From positions 40,588,788 through 40,652,787 of the forward strand of contig CM120640.1 of assembly GCA_051362555.1 (NCBI GenBank): a DNA stretch of 64,000 nt, written 5' to 3'. The position numbers and the translations under genes were made by a program. Below are positions 40,928-64,000 of the stretch, one piece after another; positions within the stretch are counted from its first letter, which is position 1, and each line of letters begins with the position of its first letter. The stretch comes from Lingula anatina (taxonomy: Eukaryota > Animalia > Brachiopoda). The notes under the pieces are model-generated. The model made no database searches. It was not told the origin of the DNA and saw only the letters and a program-made list of their open reading frames with translations.

Positions 40928-41923
40928 AGACTGAACTAAAGAATGAGAAGATCGTATGCTTGCTGTATTTTAAAGTAGCACTTCTCAGTGAACCGACTGT
41001 GAGCTGTTTTTATCATGCATTTGAAGATTTGCATTTGTTATTTACGTACCTGTCACGATCAAATGAAGCCGCGTGTTTGTGACGTGTGAAGGCCTCTGCC
41101 TTTTTTTCCACGCTGACTAGATACACAATTCGTGCGGCTCCGGATCGCGGCTAGATATACACAAGTATGGTGCTCTGTCAACAGCAGAAACGACACGCAT
41201 TGATGACGGTCGGTAATGAAGTCTGCAGTTATGGTTGGGAATTATAGAGCGTTGACAGTTAACTCCTGTACAGATTTCTAACGGGGCTGTAACATTTCGT
41301 CTGGGGCCTGGTGCAGTCAGACCACTAACATTAGAATTGTCTCCACAGTTTCCAGGGAGAAAGAGTTGCTGCAAGGACAGTTTAATTCTTAATGGTCCCA
41401 TACCAACTGACTTAATAGTGTGTTAGATTTCCTGAAGTGGAATGCTTGTTAGTGAGGCCGTGCAGCTGAAAAGGAAAGAGGACCATTTACAATAGGTAAG
41501 GAATAATGGTAATTTCATTTCCTTTTACAAAACTTTAAAGATTACATTTTGTTTACTTTTTCTTTTTTTAAACCTTCATTGAAAAGTATCATAAATTGCA
41601 TGATTATTTATCATATTTTTTACTCCGTTTTGATAATTGTACAATTCATTACATGTATTTATTTATTATTCAGTGAACATGTCGTGTGAATGAGATAATT
41701 CAACATTTTTGTACTTTGACATATAAGACTATTTTTTATAATAAAATTTGTACGTTTTTCAAGGTGTGCACAATCTAAGCGAAGATACGTAGAGTGAAGC
41801 AGAAAAAATACCGAAAAGGGGAAAAGGGTGAGTTGTAAATTAAGGATCATTTCTAGTTCAACCGCATTGCTGACTGCTTTTCACAATTTGAAAAAAAAAA
41901 TTCGAACTATAAGCTAAGAAAAG

Positions 41924-42889
41924 ATGCCTCGGCCAGGAAGAAACAGTTACAGCGATCAAAAGCCGCCGTATTCCTACATTGCCCTCACTGCCATGGCAAT
42001 ACAGAGCTCTGCCGAGAAAATGCTTCCTCTGAGCGATATCTACAAATTCATCATGGACAAATTCCCATTTTATCGGGAGAACACTCAAAGATGGCAGAAC
42101 TCCTTAAGACATAATTTGTCGTTCAATGACTGCTTCATCAAAATCCCACGCCGGCCGGATCGCCCGGGCAAGGGGAGTTACTGGGCTCTACATCCAATGT
42201 GCGGAGATATGTTCGAAAACGGGAGCTTTCTACGTAGGAGAAAGAGGTTCAAACTTCAGCTAAGGCAGCTAGCCGGGTTAGCTGCGCAGGCGGGGTCGGC
42301 CGAACAGGAACAAATGAAGCATCGAATGGAGCAAGCCTTGTTTCTACCACACCACCCAAAATATGGAATACATCCCTACGCCGCGGCACACCTGGCACCT
42401 TTTCTAAACCAACCAATGAAGCATCCTTTCACCATAGAGCACCTTATGGCTCCAGATTATAAGCGACCAACTTTCATGGCACCCCACACTTTACTTCCCC
42501 CGGGCATCGCAATCCCAAGGGCACTGGTGGCTCCTTTCGGACTGAGCCCATCGATAAATACTTGCCCTTCTTGCGGCGAAAGTGGCAACGCTGGGAACAT
42601 GCTCTGCAACTCCTGTCGAGTTTCAGTCCACAAAGAGGGGCTTGCGTATTCTGTTAATCAGCTAAATGAGGAGCTTCGACTTCTTAAGAGTCAAACTACT
42701 CCACGAGACGTCACAGGACCCTCGGTGCCCCTGCCGATCAAGCCAACGCCAATCTCTAGCTTTCCTCTTGCCATTCTGCCGCCAAGAACGAGCGGGCTCG
42801 CGTTCTCGTCAACAGCTACGCCGAGATCAGCGGAAGTGGCCTTGAATCTGTCAACCCACTCACCACCGTCGTCAAAAGGTAGTAGATAA
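41924..42889 (+). CDS. FoxB: Forkhead box B transcription factor (321 aa, single coding exon)
   Basis: [106 protein letters not shown] is the diagnostic FoxB forkhead domain. An eh1-like motif HPFTIEHLM lies at 42422-42448. Confidence 0.97.
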
Positions 42890-51186: not shown

Positions 51187-51513
51187 CGAGAAATTCAAAA
51201 TCAAATGGAAATATGACCTCATAGCTCAAGAAAAGATGCGCTCGACCTTCTTAAATTAGCCATACTACGTATTACAAATGTTCACAATTAAAAGAATTGA
51301 GAGAAAAGAGTATGTGCACCCCACCTTGCCCCTTGTTATGAACAAGAAGACGGGCAAAATTTCATAGTAAGGTGCTATTACTGGAAAGTGCTGTATTGTT
51401 TGTTTCTTTGTCGTGGACATGCGTTCAACATTACAGTTTCATTAATTTTGCTATCAGTTAAATGTTTTCAATCTCACGCAAGACCTTATAATAAGAGTAC
51501 CGTTAGGTTATTA

Positions 51514-54500
51514 TCATTTACTTGTGATCGTAGCTTGTTCTCGAGGATCATTATCACGCTTGGGTTCACGTTCCAAAGCGCTGGCCAGACTCACTACTGA
51601 CACCTCCGGGGGAAGTGGGAATACTGCTGACCGCCTGGTGGCGCTCGGAAAAGAAGGTCTGGCGGAAATAGAACGCATAAAAACAACTGGGTCGTTCCAG
51701 TTTCCAATGTTGTGTTCTACCAGGTCGGCGCCAAGCATTTCCTCCTCAGGTGTCATCCGCAGTCCAATGGTTTTGTGGATCGCCTTTAGAAAGAGGGGGA
51801 AGGATAAAGGCTATTGTCAAAGCATATGCCTTAATCAAAAGAACAGAAAATAAAGACGGACAGAAAGCAAAATAAATGAATAAAAACTTAAATAGCCAAT
51901 TATTTACACGACAAAAGACCCCACATATAAATATATGTAAGCTATTATTAGATTTTATCAATCATATATGTATACTAAACATGCATATAGGTTGATATAA
52001 TGTAATAACTTATCGTTTCCTATGGGAATCATCATCTCGCAATTGAACTTACATAAAGCATCAGCACAGACAATGCTGCTGACCACACAATAATACAAAT
52101 GACAGCCAGTGATTGGACGCCTAGCAGATACATTCCTCCACCCTTGAACAGTCCTGCATGTCCCTTGGTCATATCTTCCAGGTAATCAATCTCCACGAAA
52201 AGGCCAACTGCCAGCAACCCCTGAAACAAGAATGGCACGGTTGCTATGATGCCTTGAAGCCCGTGTTATGCATGTGCCTATCTTGTCCCTTCATGATTTA
52301 CCATTAAAATTATTGGTAAGCGACATGGACGCAAACGGAAATAATCTCAGTACAGGTTCTCTATTCATCCATTATTGATATAAGTCTTAACATATTAGAA
52401 AAAAACACAATGAAAAGCTAAACCTGTCGCAGCTGAAAGTGGCATCACGAGTTCAGAAATGAACGGTGGGTGTTAATGTTTCATATTTGAGAAGTGATCA
52501 TTGATCAGTCTGTTAGACCATACAGGCAGACAGGCCTTACGTCATACAGTGAAAGGAGTCATTTGTCATGATTGCAAGTGTTAAGACGGTCTTGTTGTCA
52601 ATGTATTGCATTACATGACTACTAACTATTTCAATCACGTTTAAGCCCCCAGAGTAGGTTTATGCTTTAACAGGAAGTAATATACAAAGAAATTAACCCC
52701 GACTTGTTCTGGAGTGATATTTGAGTATTATATTGGGAATTCAGTTTGTCGAATTAAAATAATACTGGCATCATTCGTTTTCATAAACAATGAAGGACCT
52801 GTGCAGTCCTAGTGAGGCGAACAGTTACAATTGAGGGTCCCCTTCTTTCATCATTATCATGGGGTCAATCAGTGTATGTTTATGGGTCAATGGGTACTTG
52901 TTCACCAACGCGTTTCACATTACATGTGCACATAACCAAGTCTATATCTTTATATCTATAAATGTTGCATTTGCAACCTTTTGTAGAGGAAACCAAGCAA
53001 ATGAGACAATTTAACCTTTTTTTTTAATAAAAAATCAAGAAGTACATGTAACACCACTACAGCGATCACAATTTACCCGATCGTTTTTTTATGTAATCAA
53101 GTTTAGGTGCCTTTACACAAAAGAAATAAATGTCATCAACGTTGGATATTATAGGTGAAGTTGCTAAACCTTACCTTGTTCTTGATCTTTGGCTATTTTG
53201 CTAAGTTGCCTAACTGAATATTTTGGGTTTATGTTTTTAAAAATACGTTAAAATATATTACTAATTGTAAGGCTGGATCACCTACTCAAGTCAAGTGGCA
53301 AGTAATACAAAGCTTACATATATAACCTTGATCTTGGCATGTTTTCAAGCTTTTGTATTTTAGAAATGATTAGTTTTATATTACAAGTGCTCTTTTAGGA
53401 CACGCACACAAAAATCTGAAATACTTTAAAATGGGTATGCATCTCTCGTCGTCTACTTATAAAATTTAAGATGACTTTTTAAGTACATTTATAATTTCAA
53501 TCAAAATTTGTTTTGTATCCTTGTTAAAAAAATGCTCTTTTGTGATATTACCCAAAACTAGTGTCCAAGCAAACTGGTGCCACTTGACCAAAAAAGCGAG
53601 ACAGTGGTATTCACAAAAGTTGTTAATGTTAGTTTGTTTCGAAACAAATTTGCTGATGCTGATACAGTGATGTTAGCAGTCCAAAAGTTCTCGAGTTCTA
53701 CAATTGATGACAGTGCACGTACCTGCCCAATAAACGTAGGCCTACTGGTACAGTGTCACTGACAGAAGGAAACCGATTTTATACCTGCTATTAAACCAAA
53801 ACCTACCCACACAGCTGCGCTCCCATGGATTGCGAATGTTGACACCGGATCATCGATTTTAATTCTGTCCATAAGCGACACCGTGGCTATGGTTATAACG
53901 CCCCCCAACGCTCCTATAACCAAAGCCTCCCAAGGACGCACCACAGCGCACGAGGCTGAAATGATAAAGCACCGTTTCCTGTTCACATGTACGTACCCAC
54001 GTGCCACCAATGCCATGCACAGCCACGGCACCAACAGGGTCATCTATTTTCAGTCTATTCATCAAACAAACGCCTGCATTGACCAGTAAGGAACCCGCTG
54101 TTCCAATTACAATAGCTTCCCAAGGTCGGACAACCATGCAGCTTGCTGGAAGTATATTTTATCATGGTTTTCGCAGGGTATGGTATCAGACAAGTGCTGT
54201 ACCTGTAGTTACAAGGTATGAGTGCATATAATTTGAAACAATTGGAAAATTCCTGTTCCATGACTTAACGGTCAACCATGGAAGCAATATACATACAGGT
54301 AGATTACACTAATCATATGTTATCCACTCAATTTTTTTCTTTTGAAATAGTATTTTGTATTGGCAATAAATACAAAAACATGACTGCCTACATACCAGTT
54401 ATTGACACCAAGGAGCCTAGGATTCCATTCACTAAGTCAGAGACGCCATATTTCCGTTTGTTCTTTATGTAGCTACAAATATGACAAAAGCAATACATTA

Positions 54501-54828
54501 GAATATATCGATGAACTGGACCGTAATGATGAATGGTTATTCCAATATACCATCTTTTTTTTTCAAGAGAGCCAAAGAAAAATAAAGCACAGCAGAAGCA
54601 AAAAGGAATTTGCATAGAGAAAATTTAACGGATGAAAATATTCAAAGTAAAAAAAAGAAGTAACAACTCAATTGTTCATAGACAAACACGGTAAATTTAC
54701 CTAAAGATAACGGCAGCAATGCCTCCCCCAATTGAAGCATTAATGGTTGTTGCAGCAGATCTGAAATTTCAAAGAACTCATCATTCATTCATAAAAAAAG
54801 CCAAGCTGTGTTGTTTTCCTTTCTTTTA

Positions 54829-54862
<34 letters not shown>

Positions 54863-57800
54863 ACAACGCAGGTGTATTTACTAGCTTATGTGTAGATGAG
54901 TAGAACAAAAAATATTGGATCGAATAGAGCAAAATTTCCACTGCTTTTGTTGTCACGTATATCTTTTTCAAGTATAAGAGTCGGCTTTGACAACTTCAAT
55001 AATCAAATTGAAACGTTTTGTTGCGAATTTGAAAACAATTTAAAAACAATTGCCACAGGAGGGAGTTGGTGGCTTTCAGGAGGCTAAGACAGAAGTAACT
55101 AAAAATACTAACAAATGTAATTACAGGTGAAGGGAGGTGACGCGGACGAAACCAGATATTTCCGGTGTTATAGCAACCGATTCTGTCTAAGATGATTACG
55201 TCTGATTTAATTTACTTAATTATTTTACCAATTTATCTAATTTTGGATCTTGTTGCGCCTTTTCCGTAAGCAATGCATCGATTGCCATTTACCCAAAAAT
55301 TTATAAGGCATTTATCTAGTTATTCAATAAAAGTTACATACTTTGCCGCCAGTTTCCACTTGCCTCCAGAAATACCGAACGTGCTTCCACAGTTGAAACC
55401 AAGCCAACCCCACCTAAGACATTTAAAAAAAAAGTAGTATCAAGTTGCAGTCTAACAGATTTTCTTCTAATAATCTTTCTTTTTTTTTCAAAAATTGCCT
55501 CACGTCTTAGTTTAAACCGTGAAATTATCTAGGAATACATAGAATAAAAGCTTTGTGTTGCAAAACGTCATAAGTATAAATATACATGTAGATTAAAAAA
55601 AAACTAATGTCAAGAAGCTCAAAATAATATGAAAACAATGCACAGACTTCAGAAGGCTAGCGCTTTTACACAAACACAAGCACTCACCACAACATAAACA
55701 TGCCCACTATGGCATTAGTCGGATTACCAAGAGGCAATTCGTTGGGACCGTCGTCGTATCTTCCAGACCGTGGTTTCAGTAAAATGGCCGCCACCAAACC
55801 TGTCACAGCACCACACAGGTGCACAACCCCGGAACCAGCTATATCAATAGCACCCAACGTATTAAGAAACCCATTTCTTCCCCAAATCCAGTGTGCTGGG
55901 AAGCTGTAAACAATCGTGTTGAGAAAACTAAACAATATATACGCCGTCAATCGGGTTCGTTCAGCCATTGCCCCAGAGACAATTGTCGTGGCTGTAGTAG
56001 CGAAGGATAGCTGAAAAATGTAGCTTGAGTAAACAACGCCCATTTCGGCATCTGGTACATCGACTGCCCAGTAGCCAACCCCCATGAACGGATTGGAGCC
56101 TGGAGCTTCTCCAAAGCTTATGCCATAACCGAAGAGCCAGTATGTTATGCCACCGAAGAGAACATCCATGGTGTTCTTAACCATTATGTTAACTTCGTTC
56201 TTGTGGGAGACAGCACCAGACTCGAGGAGGCCAAATCCTACAAAACAAGGCAGTTAAATTTGACTTGGTTTATTTAGACTAAAAGTTTATTCACTTACAA
56301 TATAAGATATAAATGCTGTTGTTATGAATGAGACGAACTATGTCAACTTCGAATTAATTGGTGGGTATTTAGAAACTTAGGTAAATCAATTCGTTAGGAT
56401 AAGTACTTTTTGTGATATAATTGTAACAAAAACGATTTGCGCTAAATTACTTTTCTGTATAAGATGCCAGTTCCAATAGATAAGTTACCTTACAAAGGTA
56501 ATTGAAAATTAAATAATGGAAAAATGCTAAATGAAATGAACTCAAACGTACTTTACTTTCCATTGTCGTTGAAAAACTCGTTAAAATCAGGAAATGAGGA
56601 AACTGAAACAAATGCAGTAAGCTGAATATCCCATATCTTATGGAAATGGAAATTAACCTTTACCTTGCCTTGGATGATTTTTTTCATTGTAAAAATTGTC
56701 CAGTGTTTTTACTGCGTTTGTGTTTGTAAAATCAATAATGCTACGTAAAGTGAGCTTCAGCTACTTGATGGGTATACTATCTTGTCATTTACAGGGGTAG
56801 TCAACAAGGATCAATCAAGTTTCTCTGAAATTCAACATTTGTCCTCATGCATCCAGGGGTGGGTACCCAGGCAACACAGAACGTTATTATAACGTTACCA
56901 TTACGTAATGTAAACGTTACGTTTATTTGACCAATAACATTATGGCAACGTTATGGTAACGTTATAAAATATCTGGGGTTTGTTGGGTACTCAGCATGGC
57001 AACATTCGAATAGAATTTTGGAACATCACTCGCCGATAACAGTCATCAGAAGTGGTCAAAGGAGTAGGAATAAAGGTTTCTGGATTTGCTTGGCACATTT
57101 CTATACATAAAAAAATGACATATGACATCTCGTTTGAGCGAGGGAAGAAACCGCTTATGGATGCGGATATCATGCAATCCCATTCCAATGGTTAACTCAA
57201 TTTTCCCTGTCACCTATTTTTGTCAATAATTGCTTTTTTGCTTGGTTAATTCAATTAATTCTTTATGGATACATGCCAGGATTACCTATAATTTGCGTCT
57301 TTATTTATACGCCAAGTTCCCTTGAGTTTGTTATGAATACAGCAATTAACGTAACCAGTAGTGATCCCTTCTTGGATGCCATCTATTTGCTTAATTCATC
57401 CATTCATCTATGATAGGTACGAGTACGAAATGCTGCATTCAGCACAGTAGTAAGCAATAACCAAAATTTGACCATCCGCTACGTAATCCAGGAAACAAAA
57501 CACTAGACACTCATTTCAGAGCCACGTATTAATGGTAACGCCGAAAACGTTGGGATAACATAGATTCCCCATTCAGACATTATTAAAACTGGCCCTATAC
57601 GTTATAATTAAATAAGATTGGTTCAAGGTGATCTAACCAGCAGAAGGCACGCATGCGTTTGACCACAGAAGTAAATTCTCTGCACACTCAACCCTTCTGG
57701 CAGAGCTGGGATTGGGAGGGGGGTTACAAAGTGCAGATCTTGAATGTTTACAGAAAATGTCTAATAGTGACCTAAAAAAAACAATGTTGCCTCAACTCTA

Positions 57801-58473
57801 AAAAGATAGACATTATGTTTAAACAGTTTTTTTTTTCATTTTTGAGAATCTTGTGTGTGATTTTACCTTCGAATTCTTAAGTTAATATTTCCTTCTGAAA
57901 TGTCCAGGAAGGTCTTGCGGTCATAGTGCCTGGTCAGTCATTTAGAACTCAATTGACCATATAGAAAAAGGTATACTACATCAAAGCCAAGTGCAGTGGC
58001 GGATCTAGCAACGATTACTGAGTTGAAGAATAAACTGTTTTAGAAGAGAATTAAATTCTGCAGAATTCTTGGAAAGGATACCTTTGACTGAGCTTACTCG
58101 CAATACTAAGGACAAAATACATGTATAATCAACTAAGGTGCATTAGTGCACAAAGTGTGTGTTTTCATTCTTTTGACATAATGGACGTACAAGATTCTTT
58201 AAATCTTATGCATATGGGTTTTTGTTCAGAGAGATTTCATATTAAATATTGTGAGTTTAAATGTGCCTTTTTAATGCTATGGAAGCAAATTTGTTTCAGA
58301 CGTATGTAATTTTAATGAGCAACTCCATGGGATTTACCCGCCAAAACGGATTTTCCCAGAAAAAATAATTTCTCGATCTCGTGAATCATTTATCTATCTC
58401 TTCATTTTAACTGGACTTTTAATTGAATTTACAAAGGTTGGTTTAGTTTAAAATGGCTCGTTGTGTTTTGCAG

Positions 58474-58519
<46 letters not shown>

Positions 58520-58990
58520 CACTTGCATAAATGGTTGCCGTTTGTTTTGGAATTGACATGTATATATTAGTGATATTATACCCTCTACCAGGGCCACAGA
58601 TTGATTTTTCACAAGATATTCACAGGTAAGTCTGTAAATAAATAGACGGTCATTTTACTATCTTTGGTAGAGGGTAGTGATATTTATATTTACAGTGTCT
58701 TAATAAATGGTCAGTAATGCAGTTTTCTTAAGTTTCAATGTAAAGTACAGATAAACAGAGCATACCAAGACCACCGAAATCTAACAACCCGCCGCTGCTA
58801 GTTTATCAATAGGTAAGATATAACTATTTAACGCACAGTAATACGCACCTGACTGCATTGTGAAAATGATGAAAGAACTGGTGAGAATCCATGTGGCGTC
58901 ATCCCAAGTCATGTCTTTTTCCGAGGCCTCTGTGGAGTTCAGGGACGAATCCGACAACAGTTCATCATCTAAGAATGAAGTATCGTTCAT
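51514..58990 (-). CDS. amt: Ammonium transporter (Amt/Mep family) paralog 1, about 495 aa, with alternative exons 6A/6B
   Basis: Exons: 58849-58990, 55688-56237, 55342-55413, 54701-54760, 54396-54472, [53997-54145 or 53807-53955], 52053-52220, 51514-51783 (1488 nt with one exon 6). Motifs FTMQSGFGLLESG, FQLSFATTATTIVSGAMAER, AHWIW, DIAGSGVVH, WWGWLGFNCGS, NGILGSLVSIT, KIDDPV...HG, GLR...EEE..GAD..EH. Confidence 0.93.
53807..53955 (-). other. Amt paralog 1 exon 6B (149 nt)
   Basis: Acceptor TTTCAG, donor GTAGGT; encodes (A)SCAVVRPWEALVIGALGGVITIATVSLMDRIKIDDPVSTFAIHGSAAVW. Confidence 0.9.
53997..54145 (-). other. Amt paralog 1 exon 6A (149 nt)
   Basis: Acceptor TCCAG, donor GTACGT; encodes (A)SCMVVRPWEAIVIGTAGSLLVNAGVCLMNRLKIDDPVGAVAVHGIGGTW. 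Confidence 0.9.
54832..54859. repeat. (TG)14 microsatellite
   Basis: Direct read, intronic. Confidence 0.95.
56866..56987. mobile_element. 122-bp MITE-like element, CCCA...TGGG termini, TA TSD, internal AACGTT repeats
   Basis: TA-CCCAGGCAACACAGAACGTTATTATAACGTTACCAT ... ATGGTAACGTTATAAAATATCTGGGGTTTGTTGGG-TA; imperfect foldback in Amt intron 1. Confidence 0.6.
58477..58518. repeat. (AG)21 microsatellite
   Basis: Direct read. Confidence 0.95.
58581..58674. mobile_element. 94-bp MITE-like element with 10-bp TIR and TA flanks
   Basis: TA-CCCTCTACCA ... TGGTAGAGGG-TA. Confidence 0.5.
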
Positions 58991-60961: not shown

Positions 60962-63775
60962 ATGGCGGGATTTAACAAGACCTTAGCAGCGGACGAAAAT
61001 CTGTCATATTTTCGAAGAGGAAGTTTACAAGAAATTGAGCAAATCACCTGGGACGATGCTACGTGGATCCTCACCAGTTCCTTTATTATTTTCACGATGC
61101 AGTCAGGTACGGCTCAAACCGAAACCATCTTTTCGTTCGGCAGTCTTAAAATTGTTTTCTATAATATGGTTAGAGGTCAATATAAAAAAAAGAAGAAAGA
61201 GATTTAGAATTGGTTGGTGCTTATTGATAAAAAGTATTTTAATATTTTTTTTTAAATTCCCAATATTCTGTTAGCAATTCCAGTACGTATGGATATATGA
61301 CAGCATTTAATAATTTCAGGGTTTGGGTTGCTTGAGTCGGGAGCAGTTCATGGAAAGAATGAAGTGAATATAATGGTGAAAAATGCAGTGGATGTCATAT
61401 TTGGCGGAATAACATTTTGGATGGTGGGCTTTGGACTCGCCTTTGGCGATGGACCCTGGGCAAACCCATTCTGTGGAATTGGATATTTCTTGGTGGATTC
61501 GGATGAAAGCAAAATGGGGTGGACATTTGCCTGGTTCACTTTCCAGATGTCTTTTGCGACTACCTCTACAACCATCGTTTCCGGAGCCATGGCGGAAAGA
61601 ACCAAGCTGCTTTCGTACATTGTGTTTTCAACTTTCAATACCTTCATTTACTGTTTTCCGGCTCACTGGTTGTGGTCTCCTGTGGGCTTCTTGCAGCAGT
61701 TGGGCGCGATAGATTTCGCGGGTTCTGGCGTTGTCCATTTGGTAGGGGGAACGACCGGATTGGTGGCAACTCTCATGCTAAAACCGCGTATAGGGCGTTA
61801 TGAGCCAGACTACAAAAATGATATGGCTAATCCGACAAACGCACTGCTTGGCTTGTTCATGCTTTGGTACGCTCAATAGATACACAGCGTTCTTTAGACC
61901 AATTTAAAAATAGCAATATGGTGACAGTGTTGCAATCAACTAATGAATTTGTCTTAAAATGGATGAATCATTCTCAATGCTATTCCTTTTGCAGATTAGG
62001 ATAGTTCAAATCGTAAACAACTCAAAACATCACGCTACAGCGGTTTCTTGAAGTATAACCTGGTTTCCTTTTAGGTGGGGTTGGTTAGGCTTCAACTGTG
62101 GCAGTACCTTCGGTATATCAGGTGGGAAATGGAAACTAGCGGCAAGGTAGGCGGGAAAATATATATTTGATGGAAACTATGCAATTAATGACGATTAACA
62201 AAATAAACCATAGGATGTTAGAACATATGCTATGATAAGAAATAAGAATGATCTTAATGGTATAATAATTTGTGCGAGGTTCAAAACATTGTAGACTATA
62301 AGAGATACTACATAAACATGTACTTAGCTTTGGGCTTTTCTGCACGAACAGAAAACCAAGTCATCTTCTATATTTGATGTCAGGTCTGCCGTTGTCACTG
62401 TCAATGGATCGGCAGGCGGGGGCGCAGTGGGCATCTTTTTGAGGTAAGAAAAATCATATTTTGGTAAAAGATTCCATGAACGATTTAAAACCAAGTACAG
62501 CATATCCCAATGTAATATTTGTTGCTCCCTGATACCTGATGTAGAAGGTTAATTCAATCAACCTGTAAATTCAATTATTCAAATATATCTCGACAACGAT
62601 ACTATTGTCATTTAAGCCTAAGCCAGCGTTCAATTCACGACATTTTAAAACCTATTTATTTATTCTCTCACGACATTTGTAACACAGCTCCGGATGTTTT
62701 TTATGTGTCTGTGGATATTCCCAAAATGAATAACTGTTTTCTCTTTGGCAATATTACAAAGCTCGCATTGTTGACATTCTTTTTTTCTTTATTTTCATTG
62801 ATTTAACATTAATTTGTACTGAAAATTCTATGATTAATTTTATTTGCAGCCTTTGCAATTGTGTGTCGCCCGTCTCAGTAAAAACTGATTTAGATATTTT
62901 ACAAATGCCTTTTGCCGTCATCAAAGTTTTCTTGAATATCCGCGTGCCTTTTTTTTTTGTTACTTTTCTTGAAATTTTTTCTTGGAGTTCTTGGGATTAT
63001 TATAATAGAAATATCTATAAAGCTCATAAATGCTGTTAGTCATATTGCTATTGATTACATAGTTATATTAATCTGCCATATATTTTGTAAAGGTTTGCCA
63101 TTGGCCAAAATAGACTCTCACCACTATTTCACACACTGAAATTGTCTAAGAAATTGACATTAAGTTAAAATTTTTCACTGAGGCCTTCTGGTGAAAAGAA
63201 TCTTCAGTGGCCGTCAATTATTTCAACAATAACCGCCGCCTTTTCCAAATCAAATAATCAATACAGGAATGTGTGACTAGCACAAAGCCTATATCCAAAC
63301 TACATGTATTAATTCCAGTACTTGACAAAGGAGCATGTTCTTGCTTTGGTCTGAACTGTGAATGTATACGTTAAACTGACATTAAAGGTAATGCGTGCGA
63401 TGCAAGAGAAGTAAAGATGATGTTTTCTTCACTTTTAGCTACATCTTTCGACAACGTAAACTTGACATTGGCGATCTTGTAAATTCTGTGCTTGGTGCGT
63501 TAGTGTCAGTGACAGGTATGTGATTGTCAAGACTCTTTTTGAACAAATATTCCGTTACAGGATTATTTCCCCTTATGTACGGCAGTGTGCAATGCAGTTT
63601 TTTTACTGCTTACGTCACAATTTTCATGAAAGTCGGATATCACTGTAATCTTTTCCTCATTTAAGTTATCTAATTTTTTAAAGACAAATTGATACATACA
63701 GGTTAAACACAAACTACTAAACTGTGGTTTACAGTGGTCAATATTGTAGGCATCCCCCCAGCTTCTGTGTCCATG

Positions 63776-63813
<38 letters not shown>

Positions 63814-64000
63814 TTATACAGTATGTAATCTACATTTTGTTATCTTCAGCTATTTGTGGCCTTGCTCGCCCATGGGAGGGTTTGATAATAGGCATGCTAG
63901 GCGGTGGGATATCAGTACTGTTGCCTAAAGCCTTGGACAAGATGAAAATAGATGATCCCGTCGGTGTAGTGTCCGTCCATGGCGTATGCGGTGTATGGGG
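60962..64000 (+). CDS. amt: Ammonium transporter (Amt/Mep family) paralog 2; 3' end lies beyond the right edge
   Basis: Exons: 60962-61106, 61320-61866, 62075-62146, 62384-62443, 63439-63515, 63850-64000+. First five intron positions and phases match paralog 1. Motifs FTMQSGFGLLESG, FQMSFATTSTTIVSGAMAER, DFAGSGVVH, WWGWLGFNCGS, KIDDPVGVVSVHG. Confidence 0.93.
63777..63810. repeat. (CA)17 microsatellite
   Basis: Direct read, intronic. Confidence 0.95.

What the first reader, a model, noticed from the sequence alone, without database searches (positions are those of the whole stretch)
53807..54145. Mutually exclusive tandem exons swap the pore-histidine segment of an ammonium transporter
Seen: two homologous exons of exactly 149 nt (6A 53997-54145; 6B 53807-53955), 29/50 identical residues by my count. 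Both are stop-free, have canonical AG/GT sites, and start in phase 1 and end in phase 0. They are 41 nt apart, whereas the shortest other intron I found in the window is 142 nt. Joining both, retaining the spacer or skipping both each shifts the frame, so only one-of-two gives a full protein. Known: this segment is TM9-TM10 with DDP and the second histidine of the twin-His pore motif (E. coli AmtB D309/D310...H318); steric exclusion plus frameshift/NMD is a classic mutually-exclusive-exon mechanism. The variants differ beside the His (DDPVGAVAVHGIGG versus DDPVSTFAIHGSAA). Inference: one gene makes two channels with different pore exits, possibly mixing in trimers. I am not aware of this being described for Amt genes.
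Basis: partly seen in the sequence, partly recalled or inferred. Interest (0 to 1): 0.9.

Follow-up and report, generated by a model that had tools for sequence, protein, structure and literature searches.

The report
Swappable pore exons in ammonium channel
A lamp-shell (Lingula) ammonium-channel gene carries two old copies of one exon, RNA reads show each copy spliced to the next exon, and the gene therefore likely makes two full-length channels that are predicted to differ at the inner exit of the pore.

Summary
Confirmed. The gene is the Lingula anatina Amt annotated as XP_013397780.1. Exons 6A and 6B are each 149 nt, 41 nt apart, in the same phases; either alone gives a 495-aa protein, both or neither give early stops. 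RNA reads join 6A to exon 7 (12 reads, 3 runs), 6B to exon 7 (24 reads, 4 runs) and exon 5 to 6B (11 reads); no 6A-6B or 5-7 joint was listed. The exon 5-6A joint was not listed either, and 6A's 5' half is thinly covered, so a full-length 6A mRNA is inferred, not shown. Synonymous sites are saturated (pS 0.76, pN 0.33): both copies are old and under selection. RefSeq has only 6B. 6A keeps the family motif; 6B puts Thr at the AmtB V314 exit position (3 of 487 homolog motifs). The splicing mechanism is textbook and NKCC2 is a functional precedent; ten literature searches found no such case in Amt genes. This scan noted a similar Amt exon pair in another genome (e1-8074829, untested here). A transport difference is untested.

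The parts
58849..58990 (-). Amt coding exon 1 (from the first in-frame ATG)
   Evidence: joint to exon 2 in 5 reads of X1
55688..56237 (-). Exon 2 (TM1 end to TM6)
   Evidence: 100% to P0002; joint to exon 3 in 7 reads
55342..55413 (-). Exon 3
   Evidence: joint to exon 4, 6 reads
54701..54760 (-). Exon 4
   Evidence: joint to exon 5, 2 + 3 reads
54396..54472 (-). Exon 5, common upstream exon, ends in phase 1
   Evidence: joint to 6B in 4/2/5/0 reads of X1/X2/X3/X9
53997..54145 (-). Alternative exon 6A: TM9, loop, first half of TM10; consensus exit motif (Gly-Ala at AmtB 313-314); most purine-rich acceptor of the gene; absent from RefSeq
   Evidence: joint to exon 7 in 2/2/8/0 reads; joint from exon 5 not listed; acceptor 9 pyrimidines of 18 versus 11-16 for the other seven
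53956..53996 (-). 41-nt GT-AG spacer, likely too short to be spliced out
   Evidence: no 6A-6B joint listed in 4 of 4 runs
53807..53955 (-). Alternative exon 6B: same segment, deviant exit motif (Ser-Thr-Phe at AmtB 313-315); used by RefSeq XP_013397780.1
   Evidence: joint to exon 7 in 11/7/5/1 reads
52053..52220 (-). Exon 7, common downstream exon (second half of TM10, TM11), starts in phase 0
51514..51783 (-). Last coding exon 8 to the stop codon
   Evidence: loose read ends at 52052 match its start

Best explanation
An old tandem duplication of the exon for helix 9 and the first half of helix 10 left this Amt gene with two alternative exons; each is spliced to exon 7 in RNA reads, they are likely used one at a time, and they likely yield two full-length 495-residue channels that are predicted to differ at the cytoplasmic pore exit. 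Shown: equal length and phase, reading frames, three of the four expected joints, saturation of silent sites with conserved protein. Inferred: the exon 5-6A joint; exclusion by a 41-nt spacer too short for the spliceosome, backed by decay of out-of-frame products; a transport difference caused mainly by Ala (6A) versus Thr (6B) at the position of AmtB V314, with Gly/Ser at 313 and Val/Phe at 315. Odds: about 0.85 for two full-length mutually exclusive forms, about 0.55 for that plus a real difference at the pore exit.
For: Joints: 6A-7 12 reads in 3 of 4 runs, 6B-7 24 reads in 4 of 4, 5-6B 11 reads in 3 of 4, all CT..AC on the + strand, all on the strand expected for this gene; no 6A-6B, 5-7 joint listed. 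pS 0.76 (95% bootstrap 0.61-0.91) versus pN 0.33 (0.22-0.45), pN below pS in 2000 of 2000 resamples; 11 of 14 fourfold sites differ; under neutral drift of 0.5 changes per site, 0 of 20000 simulated copies of 6A kept frame, both splice sites and seven near-invariant residues. The 6A acceptor sits at exactly the homologous offset and the Ser-Cys after it is kept with a different Ser codon. Residues mapped to AmtB; V314 and F31 form the exit constriction and V314/F315 neighbour H318 (PMC3647058, passages); D313 binds ammonium at a cytoplasmic site in simulation (PMC1796661, passages). The 6B motif 313-323 scores below 77 of 79 non-redundant homologs, 6A above 63 of 79; 13 of the last 16... see full report: identity is 20 of 33 in TM9 and 8 of 16 in the motif part.
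Against: The exon 5-6A joint was listed in 0 of 4 runs (listing needs 3 reads); the 5' half of 6A holds 124 of 849 read letters on 6A (15%) against 38% for 6B; a smooth-coverage simulation tuned to 6B gives p 0.003-0.02, though it ignores clumping. 41 nt is at, not clearly below, the roughly 40-nt minimum reported for C. elegans (PMC4165533, passages), and the Lingula minimum was not measured. The two exons differ no more than this segment does between species (mean 24 of 49 among homologs), so divergence alone does not show a new function. No second species with the pair was found in my searches. No transport data.
Confidence: 0.55

Rival explanations
1. Two full-length mutually exclusive channels are made, but they conduct alike; what is selected is something else (TM9 lipid face, stability, trafficking, tissue-specific dosage), or nothing distinguishes them.
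For: 13 of the 21 differences lie in TM9 and its loop, 8 in the motif part. This segment is the variable part between orthologues with 90% identical flanks. Both exons keep both Asp, Pro, His and Trp.
Against: The 6B motif is an outlier (z -2.5); Thr at the exit position occurs in 0 of 115 named-set homologs and 3 of 487 motif hits overall, always with the following Phe as in 6B. Two fully redundant exons would not be expected to survive to silent-site saturation (inference).
Confidence: 0.3
2. 6A transcripts are not full length: they begin inside or just before 6A (internal start or cleavage product), so only 6B makes a channel and 6A at most gives a short TM9-TM11 fragment from its own ATG.
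For: No exon 5-6A joint listed and thin 5' coverage; all 849 read letters on 6A could come from the 12 junction reads (71 each). Codon 3 of 6A is ATG; 0 of 116 homologs have Met there. Weakest acceptor of the gene.
Against: Only about 5-7 fragments underlie the 6A counts; with one unlisted read the deficit is not significant (Fisher p 0.14; 0.04 with none). Coverage is uneven also on common exons (zero on 54701-54719 in X3). In-phase AG and the Ser-Cys upstream of the Met are conserved. Public model P0121 uses the exon 5-6A joint, though its basis is unknown.
Confidence: 0.12
3. Assembly error, haplotype duplication or a dead exon.
For: RefSeq annotates only 6B; no protein with the whole of 6A was found.
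Against: 56% DNA identity is far beyond allelic; both exons are spliced to the same exon 7 in three independent samples; P0121, which differs from the window at one residue and so rests on another haplotype or assembly, shows the same order 6A then 6B; neutral decay is excluded.
Confidence: 0.02

Closest known systems
Homologous mutually exclusive exon pairs with a short intervening intron (C. elegans let-2 9/10, egl-15 5B/5A, gly-5, bet-2; ABC transporter mrp-1 13A-D; vertebrate OGDH 4a/4b)
   Same: Duplicated exons of equal length, one used at a time, spacer under the roughly 50-nt donor-to-branch-point limit; non-3n length so that double inclusion or skipping is out of frame (PMC4165533, PMC7969005; passages).
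   Different: The worm clusters with too-short introns are all 3n long and under 40 nt apart; here a 41-nt spacer and a non-3n exon coincide. No amt or ammonium gene is mentioned in that paper's main text (0 hits).
NKCC2 (SLC12A1) exon 4 variants
   Same: Alternative versions of one exon for a transmembrane segment give transporters with different ion affinity (second-hand passage in PMC6873903).
   Different: Different family and fold; function measured there, untested here.
Animal Amt2/3-type ammonium transporters (Pfam PF00909; structures AmtB, Amt-1, Mep2)
   Same: 11-helix Amt fold (TM-score 0.77-0.78 to AmtB and Amt-1), twin-His pore, same exon end after the Trp in many animals (49 of 132 hits read through into Val, as a GT donor would give).
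   Different: No pair with identical flanks and a swapped segment among 219 proteins; no tandem copy of the segment in 347 proteins except this gene's own chimeric model and one fused double Amt.
Anopheles AgRh50a/b splice forms
   Same: Alternative splicing in the Amt/Mep/Rh superfamily with tissue bias (PMC4216128, passages).
   Different: Rh branch; forms differ only in the C-terminal tail; AgAmt itself has one transcript.

Membership tests
Homologous mutually exclusive exons | Tandem homologous exons of the same length and phase | tested here: met
   149/149 nt, phase 1 to 0, 28 of 49 aa
Homologous mutually exclusive exons | Each exon spliced to the common downstream exon | tested here: met
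   12 and 24 reads
Homologous mutually exclusive exons | Each exon spliced from the common upstream exon | tested here: inconclusive
   5-6B 11 reads; 5-6A under the 3-read listing limit in 4 of 4 runs
Homologous mutually exclusive exons | No stable double inclusion or double skipping | tested here: inconclusive
   Neither joint listed, but depth is 5-15 and up to 2 reads per run would not show
Sterically enforced exclusion | Donor to branch point under about 50 nt and spacer below the species' minimal intron | tested here: inconclusive
   Whole spacer is 41 nt, other mapped introns 208 nt or more; branch point not mapped, genome-wide minimum not available
NMD-enforced exclusion | Both/neither products carry a stop well upstream of the last junction and rise when NMD is blocked | tested here: inconclusive
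   Stops 278 and 136 nt upstream; NMD block not testable here
Amt/Mep/Rh family (PF00909) | Family profile and 11-helix fold | tested here: met
   394 bits; model pLDDT 89, 11 helices, matches to AmtB/Amt-1/Mep2; only the 6B form was modelled
Amt/Mep/Rh family (PF00909) | Second pore His and preceding Asp-Asp in both exons | tested here: met
   Aligned to AmtB D309, D310, H318
Amt/Mep/Rh family (PF00909) | Ammonium transport; trimer | not testable with these tools
   No assay

The most novel reading that the evidence does not exclude
Probability: 0.18. Interest if true: 0.78.

Novelty: new variant of a known kind. Interest (0 to 1): 0.55.

Why it matters
Animal Amt proteins are poorly characterised and usually diversify by whole-gene copies. 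Here one gene likely supplies two channels identical in 474 of 495 residues and differing in one helix pair that includes the exit constriction beside the second pore His. That is a natural matched pair for asking what the exit residues do to affinity, charge movement and direction, a debated point for Amt/Mep/Rh proteins. It also corrects the annotation: RefSeq lacks 6A and another public model fuses half of 6A to 6B. The splicing device itself is well known.

Tried and rejected
No whole genome was held, so no genome-wide intron sizes. No indexed RNA holder listed; 7 of the 9 raw-read runs were laid, X6 and X8 were not; X4, X5 and X7 gave no depth on 51300-56105. Search for a protein with the whole of 6A: none among 7 hits of 135 candidates or the best 120 of 2922. 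Metagenome scan: 80 loci, nearly all intronless in this segment, none with a tandem exon; uninformative. Thirty protein clusters listed: no same-flank, swapped-segment isoform pair in 219 proteins. Tree of the 49-residue segment, 43 hand-picked rows: unresolved; 6A nearest an annelid, 6B nearest Priapulus, a 6A+6B clade not rejected (p-AU 0.38); age cannot be set. Inverted repeats in 52200-54500: 20 short pairs, none convincing as docking/selector pairing. Junction folding energy and GC do not explain the thin 5' half of 6A. Single-sequence fold failed (pLDDT 38). No complex prediction was sent. Look-ups of earlier findings by sequence and place were blank. Literature searches without a report of mutually exclusive exons in an Amt gene: (listings only, except the papers cited); some searches were for background. 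The library lacks most subscription papers; supplements were not read, including exon tables of PMC4165533 and splicing databases such as MetazExp (listing only), which may hold this event.

Full report
Identity. Exon 2 of the gene is 100% identical to RefSeq XP_013397780.1, 'putative ammonium transporter 3' of Lingula anatina (P0002). The eight-exon model built from the window with 6B matches P0002 except for one residue and 26 extra N-terminal residues. It is a Pfam Ammonium_transp protein (394 bits); the model from an 87-sequence alignment has pLDDT 89 and 11 long helices and matches Amt-1, AmtB and Mep2 (TM-score 0.72-0.78).

Observation. 6A (54145-53997) and 6B (53955-53807) are 149 nt each, AG-GT bounded, 41 nt apart, phase 1 to phase 0. 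They share 28 of 49 whole-codon residues and 83 of 149 bases. Either alone gives 495 aa; both stop after 363 aa, neither after 311 aa, spacer retained after 395 aa. The segment is residues 276-324 of P0002: helix 282-305 (ninth), a loop, and the first eleven residues of helix 314-332 (tenth).

RNA. Nine raw-read runs of the same species label were offered; seven were laid. X4, X5 and X7 had no depth over 51300-56105. In X1, X2, X3 and X9 (about 6, 6, 6 and 30% of each run read) the joints were: 6B-7 11/7/5/1 reads, 6A-7 2/2/8/0, 5-6B 4/2/5/0. So 6A is spliced to exon 7 over 6B, and exon 5 to 6B over 6A. Joints 6A-6B, 5-7, the cryptic 6A-6B of model P0121, and 5-6A were not listed; a joint needs 3 reads in a run to be listed. 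The last gap matters. The 5' half of 6A holds 124 of 849 read letters on that exon (15%; 6B 38%). If no 5-6A read exists the deficit has Fisher p 0.04, with one read 0.14; a smooth simulation tuned to the 6B gradient gives p 0.003-0.02 for the thin half but a 9-22% chance of no 5-6A read. Real coverage is clumped (8 of 10 molecules begin at one place in X3), and about 5-7 fragments are involved. I treat this as unexplained and give an internal start 0.12. The 6A share differs between samples (X3 versus X1+X2: p 0.024 on reads, 0.11 on distinct starts, grouping chosen after seeing the data); regulation is not shown.

Selection. Between the copies pS is 0.76 (saturated, as against the neighbouring paralogue, 0.78) and pN 0.33; pN was below pS in all 2000 resamples. 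With 0.5 neutral changes per site on 6A alone, 4% of 20000 copies kept frame and splice sites and none also kept seven near-invariant residues; at 0.1, 45% and 10% did, so a very recent loss of function is not excluded by this test alone, but the reads argue against it. The duplication is old; a 49-column tree cannot date it. The exon end after the Trp is shared with many animals: 49 of 132 hits with that Trp continue with Val, as read-through into a GT donor gives (inference).

What differs. By alignment to AmtB the motif part maps to 309-324. 6A has G313 A314 V315 V317 G322, the commonest residues among 79 non-redundant homologs (69, 48, 38, 71, 54 of 79); 6B has S313 T314 F315 I317 S320 A322 (7, 0, 7, 2, 2, 13 of 79) (115 homologs before collapsing, after dropping P0002, three without the motif and one mis-picked row). 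Over 313-323 only 2 of 79 score lower than 6B; in TM9, by contrast, 6B is closer to consensus than 6A (76 versus 27 of 79 below). Over the whole exon both are ordinary. In all 487 motif hits gathered, bacterial ones and near-duplicates included, Thr at 314 occurs 3 times, each followed by Phe as in 6B, in unnamed proteins; so the 6B type is rare but natural. In AmtB, V314 and F31 form the exit constriction and V314/F315 flank H318 (PMC3647058, three passages); D313 binds ammonium at a cytoplasmic site in simulation (PMC1796661, passages). A hydroxyl at 314 would make the exit more polar; that this changes transport is a prediction.

How exclusion likely works. The whole spacer is shorter than the roughly 50-nt donor-to-branch-point limit (PMC7969005, passages), but only at the roughly 40-nt minimal intron of C. 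elegans (PMC4165533, passages). The other 12 introns mapped here are 208 nt or more. Out-of-frame products have stops 278 and 136 nt before the last junction and would be NMD targets (established rule, recalled). The 6A acceptor is the most purine-rich in the gene, which fits a minor or regulated choice. No convincing competing RNA pairing was found.

Artefact check. The copies are too unlike to be alleles, both join the same exon 7 in three samples, and P0121, which differs from the window at one residue, has the first 26 codons of 6A followed by 6B.

Comparison with what is known. The device is textbook, and swapping a transmembrane exon to tune a transporter is known from NKCC2 (second-hand passage, PMC6873903). 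In the superfamily I found only C-terminal splice forms of mosquito Rh50 (PMC4216128, passages); passages of PMC4238959 and PMC6687202 said nothing on Amt splicing, the latter placing animal amt genes in excretion and neural contexts. Searches listed no report of this in an Amt gene; the library is incomplete. No other species with the pair appeared. If its exons were also 149 nt its spacer would be 57 nt; that is arithmetic, not a finding.

Verdict. A real, expressed, unannotated alternative exon pair in the pore of a brachiopod Amt; new variant of a known kind; interest 0.55.

Noticed in passing
window 60962-64000 (+): A second Amt gene (P0101) lies head to head with this one, about 2 kb away, with introns at the same five positions. 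After the Trp that ends exon 6 it reads GG, not GT, so that intron is absent or shifted; the window ends there, so a second exon 6 cannot be excluded.
   Followed up: partly
window 54068-54145 and 53807-53955: Public model P0121 (UPI00078A60FF) fuses the first 78 nt of 6A, through a cryptic donor at 54067, to 6B in frame, duplicating half of TM9; no reads listed for that joint.
   Followed up: yes
window 54137-54139 (-): Codon 3 of 6A is ATG; 0 of 116 homologs have Met there, most have Ala.
   Followed up: partly
window 52108 and 53828: Read variants: 52108 changes Leu to Gln at the start of TM11 in 3 of 6 and 5 of 13 reads of X2 and X3; 53828 in 6B is silent. Probably alleles.
   Followed up: partly
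window 41918-42889 (+): Single open frame with a Forkhead domain; FoxB-like by recall.
   Followed up: no
window about 1400-27400 (-): Many-exon gene with C-type lectin, F5/8 type C and farnesoic acid O-methyltransferase-like domains.
   Followed up: no
window 58320-58650: Short repeat elements in intron 1 draw hundreds of partly matching reads in all four runs.
   Followed up: no
P0159, P0505, P0511: Unnamed Amt proteins with Asn-Thr-Phe at AmtB 313-315, the only other carriers of the 6B-type Thr.
   Followed up: partly
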